DNA of 64,000 nt, taken from the NCBI RefSeq assembly GCF_006345805.1, contig NC_043006.1, positions 78,492,001 to 78,556,000 on the forward strand. Reading direction: 5' to 3'. This stretch comes from Octopus sinensis. Its lineage: Eukaryota. Each line of letters starts with the position of its first letter. Positions within the stretch are counted from its first letter, which is position 1. Below, in pieces: positions 1 through 30,000 of the stretch. The position numbers were made by a program.

Positions 1-3000
1 AGAAGTCCTGTGAAAGATCAAATAAGGAACTAGCTACAAGTATTGCTTTATGTTTTTTTAATATTTTTATTTTATTTTAAATCACCAGTGTAAAATAAAT
101 TAATGTGCCCTTTTAAAGCCTAGCCAGGCTCGTGGGCCCGGTTTCCCGGTTTCAATGGCGTATGTGTTCCCCAGCTGGACGGGACGCCAGTCCATCGCAG
201 CGTTACTCATTTTTGCCAGCTGAGTGGACTGGAGCAACGTGAAATGAAGTGTTTTGCTCAAGAACACAATGCGTCACCCGGTCCAGGAATCGAAACCACC
301 ATCTTACGATCATGATGCTGACACCCTAACCACTAAGCCACGCGCCTCCACAAATCATCAGTGTACTCTTTCATAATTAATTTATAGCTAAAAGTGGTTA
401 TGATGTGAATTGTAGTTTTCGTTTCCTCCTACGTGCAGTGTCACGTTTTTTCGGTTCCTTGTATGGTGTGTGTATATGTAAATAGAAGGATTAACGGAAA
501 ATCCTATTTCTCTCATTTTAGAAACATTTCTCATGCCACCAGTAGACGAAATAGAAATGACGTTGCCCCAGAAGATAGCGAGAGATGTGCTGGAAAAGCT
601 CTCTGTCTCACGGGGCTCGCACATGCGGACCGCAAACTACGTCCCGATAGCCGTGAGCAGGGACATGGTCTGGGGGCCAAGAGCGGCGGAGGTTACAACT
701 GCTACAGGTGGAACCTAGGCTGGTAGCTGTGGAACATAGGCTGGTGGCTGACAACTCAAAGTTGCCACTGGAGAAGGTGTCACAGTATGTAACATCCCAG
801 ATGAGGGGCCTAGCGTCATGGAACGGGAAAATTGTTATACCGTCCGGCTTTTTACCGTTCCCTCGGTTTAGTCCCGCTGGCTGGAGGTGGGAGAAGCCTG
901 TGGCGTCTAGCCCGTTGCTTGAGAAGCTCCACAATTACCTAAGGGTGGTATGGCGTGGAAAGTGACCAGCTCTATGAGAGCATGAAAGTGGATGGAGGCC
1001 AATGGTTGGTTGAGTGCCTCAGTAACCCTGAGAACTATCTGAGAACTATCCGAGTGCAAGCTCCAGGTCAAGCTTCCTATGCAGTATAGGTCAAAGACTA
1101 ATACATACCACTTTTTGCCAGAGGTAGAAATAGCTTCACGTAGGGTCAACATACTTAGCTAGATAAGCAAAGTTACAAAAGTATCGATGGCAATTTAAAA
1201 CCAACAATACCAAAGAGCTGTAGGCAGTGCAGCAAAGTTCGAAAAGGAAGTAGGGTTCGAACTGGAGTAAAGCAGAAAATACAGCCCAAATTCGAGAACG
1301 GGGAAGAAAATTTGTCCTATATGTTCTATAGGAAGAGAATGGTTTAAGTGAAGAAGTTAGTATACAAAGCACTCGTCGTCATAACCAACGGAGTGCTTTT
1401 TCTTTTTCTTTTTCAGTGAAGACGAGTAGCTTAGAGGTTAGGCTTTTCGGCTCACTATTGTAAGGTCGTGAGCTCGATGCCCTTCGGCGTGTCTTGAGAA
1501 AGACATTTTATTTCATGTTACTCCAGTTTATTCAGTTGGCAAAAATGAGTAGTACCATTTAATCAAAATGGCCAGCCTTCTTACATTCTGTGCTACGCTA
1601 AATCTCCCTGAGAACTACGTTAAGGGAACGTGTATCTGTGGAGTACTAAGCTACTTGCACGTAAATTTCACGAACAGGCTGGAATGCAACTTTAGTATAT
1701 TAAGAGCAAATATAATTGAGCAATCGCAGGAGTGGCTGTGTGGTAAGTAGGTTGCTTACCGGCCACATGGTTCCGGGTTCAGTCCCACTGCGTGGCACCT
1801 CGAGCAAGTGTCTTCTATTATAGCCTCGGACCGACCAAAACCTTGTGAGTGGATTTGGTAGACGGAAACTGAAAAGAAGCCCGTCGTATATATGTATATA
1901 TGTGTATGTGTGTGTGTATATGTTTATGTGTCTGTGTTTGTGTGTCCCCCCAACATCGCTTGACAACCGATGCTGGTGTGTTTACGTTCCCGTAACTTAG
2001 CGGTTCGGCAAAGGAGACCGATAGAATAAGTACTAGGCTTACAAAGAATAAGTCCCGGGGTCGATTTGCTCGACTAAAGGCGGTGCTCCAGCATGGCCTC
2101 AGTCAAATGACTGAAACAATTGAAAAAGATTAAGAGAGAAAGAAAGAATGAGAGAAAGAGAGAGAGAGAGAATCAGTAAAATTTTTAAGTAGTGAAATCA
2201 AACAAAATTGCGCTCATAGATTTCAATGAATTCTCTCTCCCTGATTGCAATTCACAGGTCTCTCTGCCTATGGATAAAGATGGTCCATATATTTTGTCTT
2301 GATTGAGAGATATGTTTCTGTATTTTGATACCAGAGTGGCACCTTAAGAAGCAAGATTTAGTTTACAAGGATAGATCTAGTTTTAGGCTAATCAGTTTAT
2401 ACATGTGATTACTCGTCACGCACGCCGCAGTTTTGCCCACCCAACGAATTCGGCTATCCGGTGGCGGCAAAAATTAAGTGTCCGGATTAAAAGAGGTGTC
2501 GGACCATCAGTAACCGGAAGCAGTGTTAATTTTACTTGTAAGGTGCGTCTAATAAACAGGGTAGCAAAAAAAAAAGAAGGAAGTATATAATTCAGAAACA
2601 AATAAGTTTTGTATTTTGTCCTATTTATTGTTTACTTCCTTCCTTCCTTTGTATGACAAATCAGAAATTTGGCTTTCAGCAGCAGCAGCAGCAGTACTAC
2701 GTGCGCGAAAATTCATTATACATACATACGTGCACACGTGTGCGCGTGAATGTGTACACACATACACCACACACACACGCAAACACACGCATATATAAAT
2801 ATATGCATATATGTATATACATGTATATATATATATATATATATATATATATATATATATATATATATATATAATAAAATATTAGGGAATAAATCCAAAC
2901 TTACAGGGAAAAATCAGATTTAGGATTGAATCCAATTTTATAGTAAAATATTATATTATATTAAATTAGAGATAAAACCACTATTAGGCAAATCATACAA

Positions 3001-27000: not shown

Positions 27001-30000
27001 AATTGTCAGTATAGTACAACGGTTTTGCAATGGAATGGTGAAACTAATTTTTCGCTTTCTGAAAAAGCCACGTTTTGGACTTACGACACACTTACATAAT
27101 AGCAATGATATATATATATATATATATATATATATATATATGTACGGAAGTGTACATGAATATACATATGCATACATGTGAGTGTATCTGTGTGAATTTG
27201 CTTGTGTGTGTGCATGATTGCATAAACTGAAAAAAGATAAGCTATGCGCTTCAAGCTGCATTTTTATTTATTTGCTTCAATGCTTTTCAATAAAAAAAGC
27301 GATTCGATTTAAAATATAACAATGTTTACGTTCATACATATAACAAGGCAAATGTAAATCAATAAGAAAATATTAACAACAAAAATAAAGAAATATAAAG
27401 TAATAAATCTTCCCTCCCATTTTGTACAAATGTCAACTGAAAAACTACAGATTGCTACTAAATTTATAACACACAGAACAAATTCTGTTAACATGCTATT
27501 ACCAACGATATGATTATAGACTTTGGCGATAATTTAATCATGTTTAGTTATAACATCAATAAATATTAGTCGCTAATAAATCTACCAGTGTTTATTACAA
27601 CTAATAGGGCTTCTATAAAGAAGCTTTGTTTCTGGTTTATAGAAAGCGTCCGAAGGCGTTAAGTAACCTGGACACTTTTTGCACTAAGGTGAGCTGTAAC
27701 CGAATGCCAAGTTTCAACTATGTGCAAATCAGTGACCTAGAACTTGGATCATACAGAAACAAAATCACTTGTACACCCAAAACTCACACAGATTCATACA
27801 TACACACACACACACACACATATATATATATATATATATATATATATATAGAGAGAGAGAGAGAGGAGAGAGAGAGAGAGAGAGAGATAGATAGATAGAT
27901 AGATAGATAGATAGATAGATAGATAGATAGATAGATAGATAGATAGATAGACATACATATACATATTTGTGTGTGCGTTTATGTGTATGTATGTGTGTCA
28001 GCGTACGTAACTTGGCAAAATATAATCACCTCTTGTTACTGCCTTGCCCTCACAAATCAAAGACACCAACCACGGCCTAAACCTATCCAACTCATCCGCT
28101 TTTCTGTCTAGATTCCAAACACCTTTTCACCCTGAACATCAACTCATTGCACACACCCCTACTAACGATTAAACACTTTTTAAATCGTCTGCCCCAGCCT
28201 GAATCCAGCACTACTAGACTCCTCCGTCTAGCCGAGCTCCACCTAATACTTTTTCTTTCTTTGGGGAATTTAATGAACACTTGAGTGGTATTGCTATGGG
28301 ACTTGAATGGAACCCAATTATGCCAACTTCTTTGCAGGCCATATTGTAAAGTAAATTTTTGCTCATTTCTTTGGACCGGTGCAAGAGCTGTATGGTCGTT
28401 ATATTGATGAATCTGCCGGCGCCACCACCCTTGCCTGTCAACTGCTCTGCAAATTTATTTATTTCGTTTACAATTTCGCCCGGTCTTAGAATTTCCCTCT
28501 ATCATAGAGCTTATTCTTTGTAAGCCAAGTACTTATTCTATCGGGTTCTTTTACCGAACTGCTAAGTTACGGGGACGTAAACACACAAGCATCGGTTGTC
28601 AAGCGGTGTTGGGGGTACAAACAGACACAGAAACATATACACATACATACATATATATACATAGACTGGATTCTTCCAGTTTCTGTCTACCAAATCCACT
28701 CACAAAGCTTTGGTCGGCCCAAAGCTATAGTAGAAGACACTTACCCAAGGTGCCACGCAGAGGGACTGAACCCAGAACCATGTGGCTGGTAAGCAAAGTA
28801 TTTACCACACAGCCACTCTTGCACCTATGTATATATATATATCTTTTATATTTGTTCTTTTACTTGTTTCAGCCATTAGACTGCGGTCAAGCTGGGGCAC
28901 CGCCTTGGAAAATGTTTTAGTCGAATGAATTCACTCCAGCAATAATTTTTAAGGCCGGGTACTTATTCTTACGGTCTTTTATGCCGAACCGCTAAGTTAC
29001 AGGAACAACACAGATTGATAAGCTGTGGGGGAGTACAAACACAAACACCAAGTCACACTCACACACATGCATACATACATACACACGCCCATATATGTAT
29101 ATAAGTATATATATGTATATATACCACCTAACAGGCATTATAAAACCGAGCACTTCACAAAACTCACTAGAACCACCCAGCGAACATCCACCATGGGTCA
29201 TCACAATTGCTTAAGGTAAAAATGAATTCCTCGCTCTTTCGGAAACATCAATCTTCTGTATTGACCGCTTTCCACCACTTTGATGTGTTTTTTTGTATTG
29301 AATACATATCGCTACCGTGGGCCACTGCATCGAACACTTTGAACATATAGCGTGAATGAACTTACTTCAAACTATATATCAACTATACACGAACTCTAAG
29401 ATGTCTGACTCCGTTGTGTATTATAAATGAATTTCTTGTGTTTGACGGCATGAGCTGTCTTTTTTTATATATAACTTTTTTTGATAAGGTTCATTTCAGG
29501 AACTGAAACATGTTATAATGTATATATAAAAATTAAAAATTGTATAATACAGCAGCATTTTCGAACTTCATTTTTTACAAATATATATATATATATATAT
29601 ACAACGGTGTTCTTTCAGTTTCCGTCTTCCAATCAGAAACTGGAAGAATCCCGTTGTATATGTATATGTCCCCCCCAACATCGCTTGACAGCCGATGCCT
29701 GTGTGTTTACGTCCCCGTAACCTAGCGGTTCGGTAAAAGAGACAGATAGAATAAGTACTAGGATTACAAAGAATAAGTCCTGGGGTCGATTTGCTCGACT
29801 AAAGGTGGTGCTCAAGCATGGCCGCAGTCAAATGACTAAAGCAAATAAAAGAATATATACACACACACACACACACACACAGACAAACAGACAGACAGAC
29901 AGACATTAAAGTCTATTTGCCAACGTAAAGTGGCAGTCTTGATTAGGACGATGTTACTACCTTTTTTAGCCCCAAGGAAACATCTTTTCCAGCTAGCTAT

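What the first reader, a model, noticed from the sequence alone, without database searches (positions are those of the whole stretch)
1..29194. Hidden plakin-family gene that appears to begin at the SR4/SR5-SH3 module (a 'headless' plakin)
Seen: eleven phase-compatible exon segments, absent as such from the ORF track, splice into a stop-free ~344-aa frame. The most upstream candidate exon (MVDVRWVVL) has two in-frame TGAs just before its ATG, and no further plakin-like exon was found between 29.2 kb and the end of the neighbouring gene (~43-44 kb). Known: spectraplakins and plakins (Shot/VAB-10, dystonin, MACF1, plectin, desmoplakin) have CH domains and/or more spectrin repeats ahead of the W.W..Q...C motif, and the SH3 is inserted in SR5. 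Inference: this is a divergent invertebrate plakin with only ~55 aa before that motif and a sequence that departs from canonical plakins after the SH3. It is a candidate member of a little-described family of short cytolinker or junction proteins.
Basis: partly seen in the sequence, partly recalled or inferred. Interest (0 to 1): 0.72.

Follow-up and report, generated by a model that had tools for sequence, protein, structure and literature searches.

The report
Mollusc short plakin gene, middle exons

Summary
A real plakin-family gene lies on the minus strand. Eleven GT-AG exons (56611 to 4705) match residues 80-454 of the public 812-residue protein 'plectin [Octopus sinensis]' (P0001) at 100%.

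It is one of 497 ATG-to-phase-0-GT candidates in its 19.3-kb intron, 11 of them with a strong donor. The model continues upstream at 44525-44454 and 56611-56558. Residues 1-79 and 455-812 lie off the window.

The upstream part matches desmoplakin spectrin repeat 3. The protein is therefore SR3-SR6 with the SH3 insert, an acidic linker and one plakin-repeat domain. It has no CH domain and no rod.

About 800-residue orthologues turned up in 43 named mollusc records. Reviews I read list only Shot and VAB-10 as invertebrate plakins.

The 'short, little-described family' idea holds. The 'begins at SR4/SR5' idea does not. The function, linking intermediate filaments to a membrane partner, is inferred.

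The parts
56558..56611 (-). exon, 54 nt, P0001 residues 80-97 (SR3-like repeat); phase 0 at both ends
   Evidence: 100% exact match; tatag|GAC acceptor and GAT|gtaagt donor; 89% identical in Argonauta P0002
44454..44525 (-). exon, 72 nt, residues 98-121 (end of SR3-like repeat); holds the family-invariant K102 and C106
   Evidence: aacag|GCA ... CAG|gtaaac; invariant columns
25043..25159 (-). exon, 117 nt, residues 122-160; low-confidence loop of the shortened SR4-like repeat
   Evidence: pLDDT below 50 for residues 126-159
23050..23145 (-). exon, 96 nt, residues 161-192, with the W.W..Q...C motif (SR4 helix C)
   Evidence: aligned to desmoplakin and plectin
22271..22399 (-). exon, 129 nt, residues 193-235, FFHDAQEAEYW (SR5 helix A)
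   Evidence: Pfam Spectrin_3 over residues 191-259, E 0.001, below the cut-off
21620..21766 (-). exon, 147 nt, residues 236-284: SR5 helix B and the first part of the SH3
   Evidence: SH3_10 profile 1-26
20140..20202 (-). exon, 63 nt, residues 285-305, middle of the SH3
   Evidence: SH3_10 profile 27-48; AAG|gtcagt donor
17905..17996 (-). exon, 92 nt, residues 306-336 (last codon split AA|A): end of the SH3 and start of SR5 helix C
   Evidence: cag|GTG acceptor, AA|gtaagc donor
14203..14308 (-). exon, 106 nt, up to residue 371, SR5 helix C
   Evidence: ttcag|A ATG ... GAG|gtaagc
8724..8907 (-). exon, 184 nt, residues 372-432 plus the first base of D433, SR6-like repeat
   Evidence: aatag|ATA ... 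TCAG|gtaaat
4705..4769 (-). exon, 65 nt, up to residue 454, SR6-like repeat; the next exon lies beyond the window start
   Evidence: cacag|AT GGT ... GGA|gtaagt; no 5-mer of residues 455-479 occurs in the window

Best explanation
The window holds 11 internal exons (375 codons spread over 51.9 kb, minus strand) of the Octopus gene that public annotation calls 'plectin' (P0001, 812 aa). Both ends of the gene lie outside the window.

Shown here: the protein belongs to a mollusc-wide family of about 800-residue plakins. Its layout is a short isoform-specific N-terminal peptide, four spectrin repeats that correspond to desmoplakin SR3-SR6 with the plakin SH3 inserted in the third, an 85-residue acidic disordered linker, one plakin-repeat domain and a short basic C-terminal helix. 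It has no CH actin-binding domain, no coiled-coil or spectrin rod and no GAS2 domain.

Inferred: it works as a compact, probably monomeric cytolinker. The plakin-repeat domain would hold cytoplasmic intermediate filaments, which molluscs have. The SR3-SR6/SH3 module, together with the alternative N-terminal peptides, would dock it to a membrane, junction or organelle partner, as plakin domains do in desmoplakin, plectin and VAB-10A.

I put the identity and architecture at about 0.95 and the filament-to-membrane linker mechanism at about 0.5.
For: Identity. An exon-by-exon search with 21766-21620 found P0001 at 100% and Argonauta P0002 at 80% (2 hits among 18 candidates). Eleven exact, collinear exon matches have GT-AG borders that sum to 1125 nt for 375 residues.

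Architecture. Pfam gives SH3_10 at 80.1 bits over residues 260-324 and Plectin at 58.4 bits in 3 stretches, with no CH at E <= 1. phmmer against PDB gives desmoplakin 3r6n at 5.9e-20 and plectin 3pe0 at 1.2e-17. The family profile against PDB gives 3r6n at 3.1e-29, profile 33-354 to chain 11-362. The AlphaFold2 model shows helices 19-40, 48-78, 84-140, 152-212 and 224-255, SH3 strands 272-317, further helices to 471, a disordered stretch 473-557 and a beta/alpha repeat domain 558-790. Foldseek gives 3r6n_A at E 7.9e-17 over 483 columns. The linker has net charge -11 and the tail +5.

Family. 60 hits came back; 43 carry organism names, all of which I recognise as molluscs. They are 39-79% identical, most over about 97% of the query, and 0 of 60 carry CH. 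The core N-terminus is conserved in 29 aligned members. Contigs of 3440 and 2777 nt hold whole 829- and 825-residue relatives, so they look like spliced mRNAs that include the same N-terminal region. Isoform X1 is only 876-881 aa in two oysters.

Partners. Molluscs have neuronal and non-neuronal cytoplasmic IF proteins (PMC3065449, passages). VAB-10A, which carries plakin repeats, anchors IF-based fibrous organelles (PMC2199363, abstract).
Against: P0001 is a computed model. No transcript or read data for this genome could be searched, so the splicing is supported only by identity to the model, canonical splice sites and relatives. The first 79 and last 358 residues are outside the window, so far-upstream CH exons cannot be excluded here. 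One unnamed relative (P0099, 2848 aa) starts with the same architecture and then continues into spectrin repeats. Larger products, or gene-model fusions, therefore exist somewhere. The model is of moderate quality (mean pLDDT 69.3, pTM 0.37). Matches of the repeat domain to solved plakin-repeat domains are weak (2n03 at 8e-5, 1lm5 at 9.6e-5, 4qmd at 1.6e-3). No binding, localisation or expression was tested. Shot's plakin-repeat isoforms sit at adherens junctions (PMC2173965, abstract), and Drosophila is generally held to lack cytoplasmic IFs (recalled), so plakin repeats need not mean IF binding.
Confidence: 0.75

Rival explanations
1. One reading: a real alternative first exon at 29194-29168 (MVDVRWVVL) drives an internal promoter and gives a truncated plakin that begins at SR4/SR5.
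For: The ATG is preceded by two in-frame TGA codons, followed by a GTGAGT donor, and is phase-compatible with exon 25159.
Against: The segment is not in P0001, P0002, P0003 or P0004. The same intron holds 497 such candidates, 11 with GTRAGT. The segment sits 45 nt from a dispersed repeat with a microsatellite at 28915-29124. A start there would cut off the conserved SR3-like repeat and half of the next repeat.
Confidence: 0.03
2. The short protein is only one product of a giant spectraplakin locus, as BPAG1e is of dystonin or VAB-10A of vab-10. CH exons would lie far upstream, or spectrin-repeat and GAS2 exons far downstream, outside the window.
For: The gene runs off both ends of the window. 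Unnamed P0099 joins the same N-terminal architecture to spectrin repeats. Automatic names such as 'dystonin isoform X2' and 'MACF1-like isoform X5' occur in the family.
Against: Searches for longer proteins found no mollusc protein that shares these exons. The range 87-2000 aa gave only P0001 and P0002. The range 1422-4060 aa gave only four nematode proteins at 30% identity over 34% of the query. Proteins above 4060 aa were not covered. Isoform X1 is 876-881 aa in two oysters. 29 of 29 aligned members end within about 10 residues of each other after the repeat domain. 6 of the 29 start exactly at the conserved MAKSE-type site, and most of the rest start about 10-30 residues before it.
Confidence: 0.08
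3. Same protein, different job: the repeat domain does not bind intermediate filaments but targets the protein to cell-cell junctions or another structure, as reported for Shot plakin-repeat isoforms.
For: Shot plakin-repeat isoforms localise to adherens junctions (PMC2173965, abstract). The repeat domain here is only weakly similar to the solved IF-binding domains. It also has an unusual layout of six hairpin-helix units in three pairs.
Against: Molluscs, unlike Drosophila (recalled), have cytoplasmic IFs. The repeat domain and tail are net basic, +4 and +5, as expected for a groove that binds acidic IF rods. That expectation comes from PMC9145010 passages and from recalled work on envoplakin.
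Confidence: 0.3

Closest known systems
Desmoplakin plakin domain (SR3-SR6 fragment, PDB 3r6n)
   Same: It is the best sequence and fold match. The family profile scores 3.1e-29 and covers chain 11-362; Foldseek gives 7.9e-17 over 483 columns. It shares the SH3 inserted in the third of four repeats and, like desmoplakin, has no CH domain.
   Different: Desmoplakin has an N-terminal head before SR3, further repeats, a long coiled-coil rod and three plakin-repeat domains (recalled). The mollusc protein starts within about 30 residues of SR3, has a shortened second repeat, no rod and one repeat domain.
Envoplakin and periplakin
   Same: Both are CH-less plakins. Envoplakin carries a single C-terminal plakin-repeat domain (recalled). 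The Atlas lists envoplakin, periplakin and desmoplakin clusters as the next look-alikes with plakin repeats or plakin-specific families (scores 0.77-0.80, leads only). There is a weak profile match to the envoplakin repeat domain 4qmd (1.6e-3).
   Different: Both are 1700-2000 aa with a dimerising rod (recalled). Here the plakin domain is followed by an 85-residue acidic disordered linker. Orthology was not tested.
Plectin (SR4-SR5-SH3, PDB 3pe0) and its alternative first exons
   Same: The W.W..Q...C, FF.DA.EAE and SH3 regions align (1.2e-17; 1e-24). Alternative short N-terminal peptides sit ahead of a common core, as in plectin isoforms (recalled).
   Different: Plectin has CH domains, nine spectrin repeats, a rod and six repeat domains (recalled). 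The name 'plectin' on P0001 is an automatic label, not a statement of orthology.
Invertebrate spectraplakins: VAB-10A and Shot plakin-repeat isoforms
   Same: A plakin domain with SH3_10 plus plakin repeats occurs in protostomes. Nematode VAB-10-like proteins were the only longer hits (30% identity over 34% of the query).
   Different: They carry CH domains and are 3500 aa or more (for P0210). They are products of the single spectraplakin locus. The mollusc family has none of these features.

Membership tests
Plakin family (plakin domain) | Plakin-type SH3 (Pfam SH3_10) inserted inside a spectrin repeat | tested here: met
   SH3_10 scores 80.1 bits against a cut-off of 22.8, over residues 260-324. 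In the window it is split over two exons. In the model, strands 272-317 lie between helices 224-255 and 328-363.
Plakin family (plakin domain) | Tandem spectrin repeats homologous to SR3-SR6 of solved plakin domains | tested here: met
   Desmoplakin 3r6n and plectin 3pe0 are hit by sequence and by fold. Pfam Spectrin_3 and Spectrin alone stay below their cut-offs.
Plakin family | Plakin (plectin) repeat domain | tested here: met
   Pfam Plectin scores 58.4 bits against a cut-off of 20.5, in 3 stretches. 59 of 60 family hits carry PF00681. Matches to solved repeat domains are weak.
Plakin family | Binding of intermediate filaments or junction proteins | not testable with these tools
   Inferred from domain homology only.
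Spectraplakins (Shot, VAB-10, MACF1, dystonin) | N-terminal tandem CH actin-binding domain | tested here: not met
   No CH in P0001 or P0002 at E <= 1. 0 of 60 family hits and 0 of 10 scanned representatives carry PF00307. Exons outside the window were not seen.
Spectraplakins | Long spectrin-repeat rod with EF-hand and GAS2 C-terminus | tested here: not met
   There are no such Pfam matches. The protein ends about 20 residues after the repeat domain in 29 of 29 aligned members.
Rod-containing CH-less plakins (desmoplakin, envoplakin, periplakin) | Central coiled-coil rod for dimerisation | tested here: not met
   Residues 473-557 are acidic, have pLDDT below 50 and contain no long helix. No dedicated coiled-coil predictor was run.
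Rod-containing CH-less plakins | Orthology by phylogeny with vertebrate members | not tested
   P0001 has 169 residues before W170. Upstream exons lie at 44.5 and 56.6 kb. The SR3-like repeat is conserved.

The most novel reading that the evidence does not exclude
Molluscs, and perhaps other phyla given collinear relatives of about 800 residues at 24-38% identity with unknown taxa, keep a second, CH-less and rodless plakin gene beside the spectraplakin. It could represent the protostome counterpart, or an ancestral form, of the desmoplakin/envoplakin/periplakin lineage, which is usually treated as a vertebrate invention. Its alternative first exons are conserved between gastropods and bivalves. 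One encodes a hydrophobic peptide of the MVLTALVFFYFRD type, found in 11 of 29 aligned members. These exons could send the linker to different membranes, much as plectin's first exons do.
Probability: 0.2. Interest if true: 0.65.

Novelty: new variant of a known kind. Interest (0 to 1): 0.4.

Why it matters
Reviews count only two invertebrate plakins, Shot and VAB-10, both giant spectraplakins (PMC5979291, passages). One evolutionary survey speaks only of plakin repeats 'in the spectraplakins of Mollusca' (PMC9145010, passages). A conserved 800-residue protein that keeps just SR3-SR6/SH3 and one plakin-repeat domain would be a natural minimal cytolinker. It could show what the plakin domain and a single repeat domain do on their own. 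It could also date the split between CH-less plakins and spectraplakins, and give a handle on how mollusc intermediate filaments are anchored. For annotation, it shows that the names given to this family (plectin, dystonin, MACF1-like, desmoplakin-like) are inconsistent automatic labels.

Tried and rejected
1. Pfam scan of 125 minus-strand segments below 30.5 kb. Only the two SH3_10 pieces passed. My filters (at least 30 aa, entropy at least 3.75) dropped short or low-complexity segments, among them those holding exons 23145-23050 and 17996-17905.

2. Three short exact matches to P0001 outside the exon chain. The 6-mers at 29001-28984 and 54030-54013 have no similar context. The 8-mer VIVELLKQ at 938-915 has an AG before it but no GT after it, and lacks the neighbouring residues. 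I treat all three as chance; the 8-mer is the least certain.

3. Among the 5-mers of residues 1-79, two isolated hits turned up (41046-41060 on the plus strand, 4659-4645 on the minus strand). I treat them as chance.

The Atlas call on P0082 gave no taxa of its own. The range of the family outside molluscs therefore stays unknown.

5. The search for longer forms found only nematode VAB-10-like proteins. Proteins above 4060 aa were not covered.

6. Pfam on 112 other open frames gave only reverse-transcriptase fragments. My guess that 36303-36569 and 41538-42059 are mariner-type remnants found no support.

7. Rfam: 0 matches.

8. Six paper searches were run. Five looked for a description of a short mollusc plakin and found none. 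PMC4829535 held none of my terms. PMC5620054 mentions plakins only in passing.

Searches were exon by exon and then by id with the public protein P0001.

10. No complex prediction was run, and the second structure job was not used.

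
Full report
**What is in the sequence.** I scanned 125 minus-strand stop-to-stop segments below 30.5 kb against Pfam. These were the segments of at least 30 aa with entropy of at least 3.75; shorter and low-complexity ones were dropped. 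Two of the 125 matched the plakin SH3 family SH3_10 above its cut-off. Segment 21766-21599 matched profile positions 1-26 and segment 20202-19963 matched positions 27-48. The splice sites of these exons and of the two before them are canonical.

**Which gene it is.** An exon-by-exon search with 21766-21620 (49 aa, longer proteins allowed) returned two proteins among 18 candidates:
- P0001, 'plectin [Octopus sinensis]', 812 aa, 100% identical.
- P0002, an Argonauta hians protein of 1030 aa, 80% identical.

Exact-word mapping of P0001 onto the six-frame translation gives eleven collinear minus-strand exons at 100% identity. All have GT-AG borders, and their lengths sum to 1125 nt for residues 80-454 (with three split codons resolved by eye):

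| Exon (minus strand) | Residues of P0001 |
|---|---|
| 56611-56558 | 80-97 |
| 44525-44454 | 98-121 |
| 25159-25043 | 122-160 |
| 23145-23050 | 161-192 |
| 22399-22271 | 193-235 |
| 21766-21620 | 236-284 |
| 20202-20140 | 285-305 |
| 17996-17905 | 306-336 (last codon split) |
| 14308-14203 | to 371 |
| 8907-8724 | 372-432 plus one base |
| 4769-4705 | to 454 |

The introns measure 12,032, 19,294, 1,897, 650, 504, 1,417, 2,143, 3,596, 5,295 and 3,954 nt. No 5-mer of residues 455-479 occurs in the window. Of the 5-mers of residues 1-79, only two isolated ones occur. The gene therefore runs off both ends of the window. The window is thus from O. sinensis or a near-identical genome.

The ATG at 29194 is indeed preceded by TGA TGA and followed after nine codons by GTGAGT. 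However, the segment is absent from P0001 and from three other cephalopod sequences. It lies 45 nt from a dispersed repeat plus microsatellite at 28915-29124, which has copies elsewhere in the window. The 19,294-nt intron that contains it holds 497 combinations of ATG, open frame and phase-0 GT, and 11 of them have GTRAGT. It is what chance provides. The exons at 44.5 and 56.6 kb, in contrast, are 92% and 89% identical in Argonauta. They contain family-invariant residues K102 and C106.

**What the protein is.** Pfam on P0001 gives SH3_10 at 80.1 bits (residues 260-324) and Plectin repeats at 58.4 bits in three stretches. Spectrin_3 and Spectrin are sub-threshold, and there is no CH domain even at E <= 1. 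Against solved structures, P0001 matches the desmoplakin SR3-SR6 fragment 3r6n (5.9e-20, residues 166-420) and plectin SR4-SR5-SH3 3pe0 (1.2e-17). So the region after the SH3 still follows the plakin pattern.

A profile of 29 named mollusc members (A1) matches 3r6n at 3.1e-29 from chain residue 11. Family positions 33 onward align to the start of desmoplakin SR3. An AlphaFold2 model built on A1 has mean pLDDT 69.3 and pTM 0.37. It shows, in order:
- a three-helix repeat (19-40, 48-78, 84-about 125);
- a low-confidence loop (126-159);
- helices 152-212 and 224-255;
- SH3 strands 272-317;
- helices up to residue 471;
- a disordered stretch 473-557;
- a beta/alpha repeat domain 558-790;
- a C-terminal helix.

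Foldseek puts 3r6n first (E 7.9e-17, 483 columns) and 3pe0 next. The linker has net charge -11, the repeat domain +4 and the tail +5. P0001 has six [ED]A...G hairpin-helix units in three pairs. Matches of this domain to solved plakin-repeat domains are weak (8e-5 to 1.6e-3).

In short, the layout is SR3-SR6 with SH3, an acidic linker and one plakin-repeat domain. There is no CH domain, no rod and no GAS2 domain.

**The family.** A search with P0001 among proteins of similar length gave 60 hits.
- 43 carry organism names, all genera I recognise as cephalopods, gastropods or bivalves. The other 17 have none.
- Lengths run from 474 to 1098 aa, mostly 766-900. Identity is 39-79%, and coverage is about 97% for most.
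- 0 of 60 carry a CH domain.
- The source names are inconsistent: plectin, dystonin-like, MACF1-like, desmoplakin-like, uncharacterised.
- Isoform X1 is only 876-881 aa in two oysters.

Two unnamed relatives of 829 and 825 aa sit on contigs of 3440 and 2777 nt. These leave no room for introns, so they look like mRNAs that carry the same N-terminal region.

The N-termini vary by isoform ahead of a conserved core:
- a hydrophobic peptide in 11 of 29 aligned members;
- MW.RW..QKK in 5 of 29;
- a direct start at the conserved MAKSE-type site in 6 of 29;
- other peptides in 7 of 29.

Cephalopods share MKSIESK instead.

A full HMMER scan of 1.84 billion representatives with A1 found 1431 proteins at E <= 0.001. 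Most are giant repeat-rich proteins. Several, though, are collinear proteins of about 660-830 aa at 24-38% identity to the named molluscs, with the same two Pfam domains and no CH in 10 of 10 scanned. The Atlas places P0001 in a 59-member cluster that is mostly Mollusca. Envoplakin, periplakin and desmoplakin clusters follow among the next look-alikes at 0.77-0.80, which is a lead only.

**Results that cut the other way.**
- P0001 is a computed model, and I could not reach transcript data.
- One unnamed relative (P0099, 2848 aa) begins with the same architecture and goes on into spectrin repeats. This could be a true larger form or a fused gene model.
- The search for longer proteins covered only 87-2000 aa and 1422-4060 aa. 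It found only nematode VAB-10-like proteins, so a giant isoform above 4060 aa is not excluded.

**Mechanism (inferred).** By homology, the repeat domain should bind cytoplasmic intermediate filaments, which molluscs possess in neuronal and non-neuronal forms (PMC3065449, passages). The SR3-SR6/SH3 module, with the variable N-terminal peptide, should dock the protein to a membrane, junction or organelle partner. Without a rod it is probably a monomer. VAB-10A gives a protostome precedent for IF anchorage (PMC2199363, abstract). Shot's plakin-repeat isoforms at adherens junctions give a precedent for a filament-independent role (PMC2173965, abstract).

**Novelty.** The gene is already in public annotation, so the locus is not new. 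PMC5979291 (passages) counts nine plakins, with Shot and VAB-10 as the only invertebrate ones. PMC9145010 (passages) reports plakin repeats in 'spectraplakins of Mollusca' and does not mention a short form. Five searches aimed at a description of such a short form found none. Subscription journals and supplements were not covered. I rate it a new variant of a known kind, of moderate interest.

**The rest of the window.** Apart from two reverse-transcriptase fragments at 62387-63150 on the plus strand, dispersed repeats and many microsatellites, I found no other gene. There were no Rfam matches.

Noticed in passing
window 62387-63150 (+): Two adjacent open frames match Pfam RVT_1 below its cut-off (22.3 and 19.7 bits, profile 59-107 and 148-195). 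This looks like a decayed LINE-type reverse transcriptase inside the plakin gene's upstream intron.
   Followed up: partly
window 28915-29124, with copies near 57340-57503, 30337-30424, 3531-3701, 2045-1901, 28517-28657, 16264-16421 and 29702-29803: A dispersed SINE-like repeat of about 150-180 nt (70-80% identity between copies) is followed by TA/CA microsatellite. Rfam found no tRNA-like or other RNA family in the window.
   Followed up: partly
window 938-915 (-): There is an exact 8-residue match (VIVELLKQ) to P0001 residues 465-472, on the right strand and downstream of the last mapped exon. An AG precedes it, but no GT follows and the neighbouring residues do not match. It is probably chance (my rough estimate is about 0.03 expected), but a decayed exon copy is not excluded.
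   Followed up: partly
family alignment A1 (not in the window): Conserved alternative N-terminal peptides sit ahead of the common core. A hydrophobic MVLTALVFFYFRD-type peptide occurs in 11 of 29 members from both gastropods and bivalves, and MW.RW..QKK in 5 of 29 (oysters and scallops). This suggests old alternative first exons and perhaps membrane targeting.
   Followed up: partly
unnamed representatives P0099 (2848 aa) and P0093 (1377 aa): These relatives begin with the same CH-less SR/SH3 plus plakin-repeat layout but continue into many more plakin repeats or spectrin repeats. Their organisms are unknown. They could be larger true forms or merged gene models.
   Followed up: partly
window 36303-36569 (+) and 41538-42059 (+): By eye these open frames recalled mariner-type transposase remnants. 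Pfam gave no support (best E 0.12-0.16 to unrelated families).
   Followed up: yes
window 16248-17006 (+): A 253-residue open frame on the opposite strand, inside an intron, has no Pfam match even at E <= 10. It lies in repeat- and microsatellite-rich sequence and is probably not coding.
   Followed up: partly
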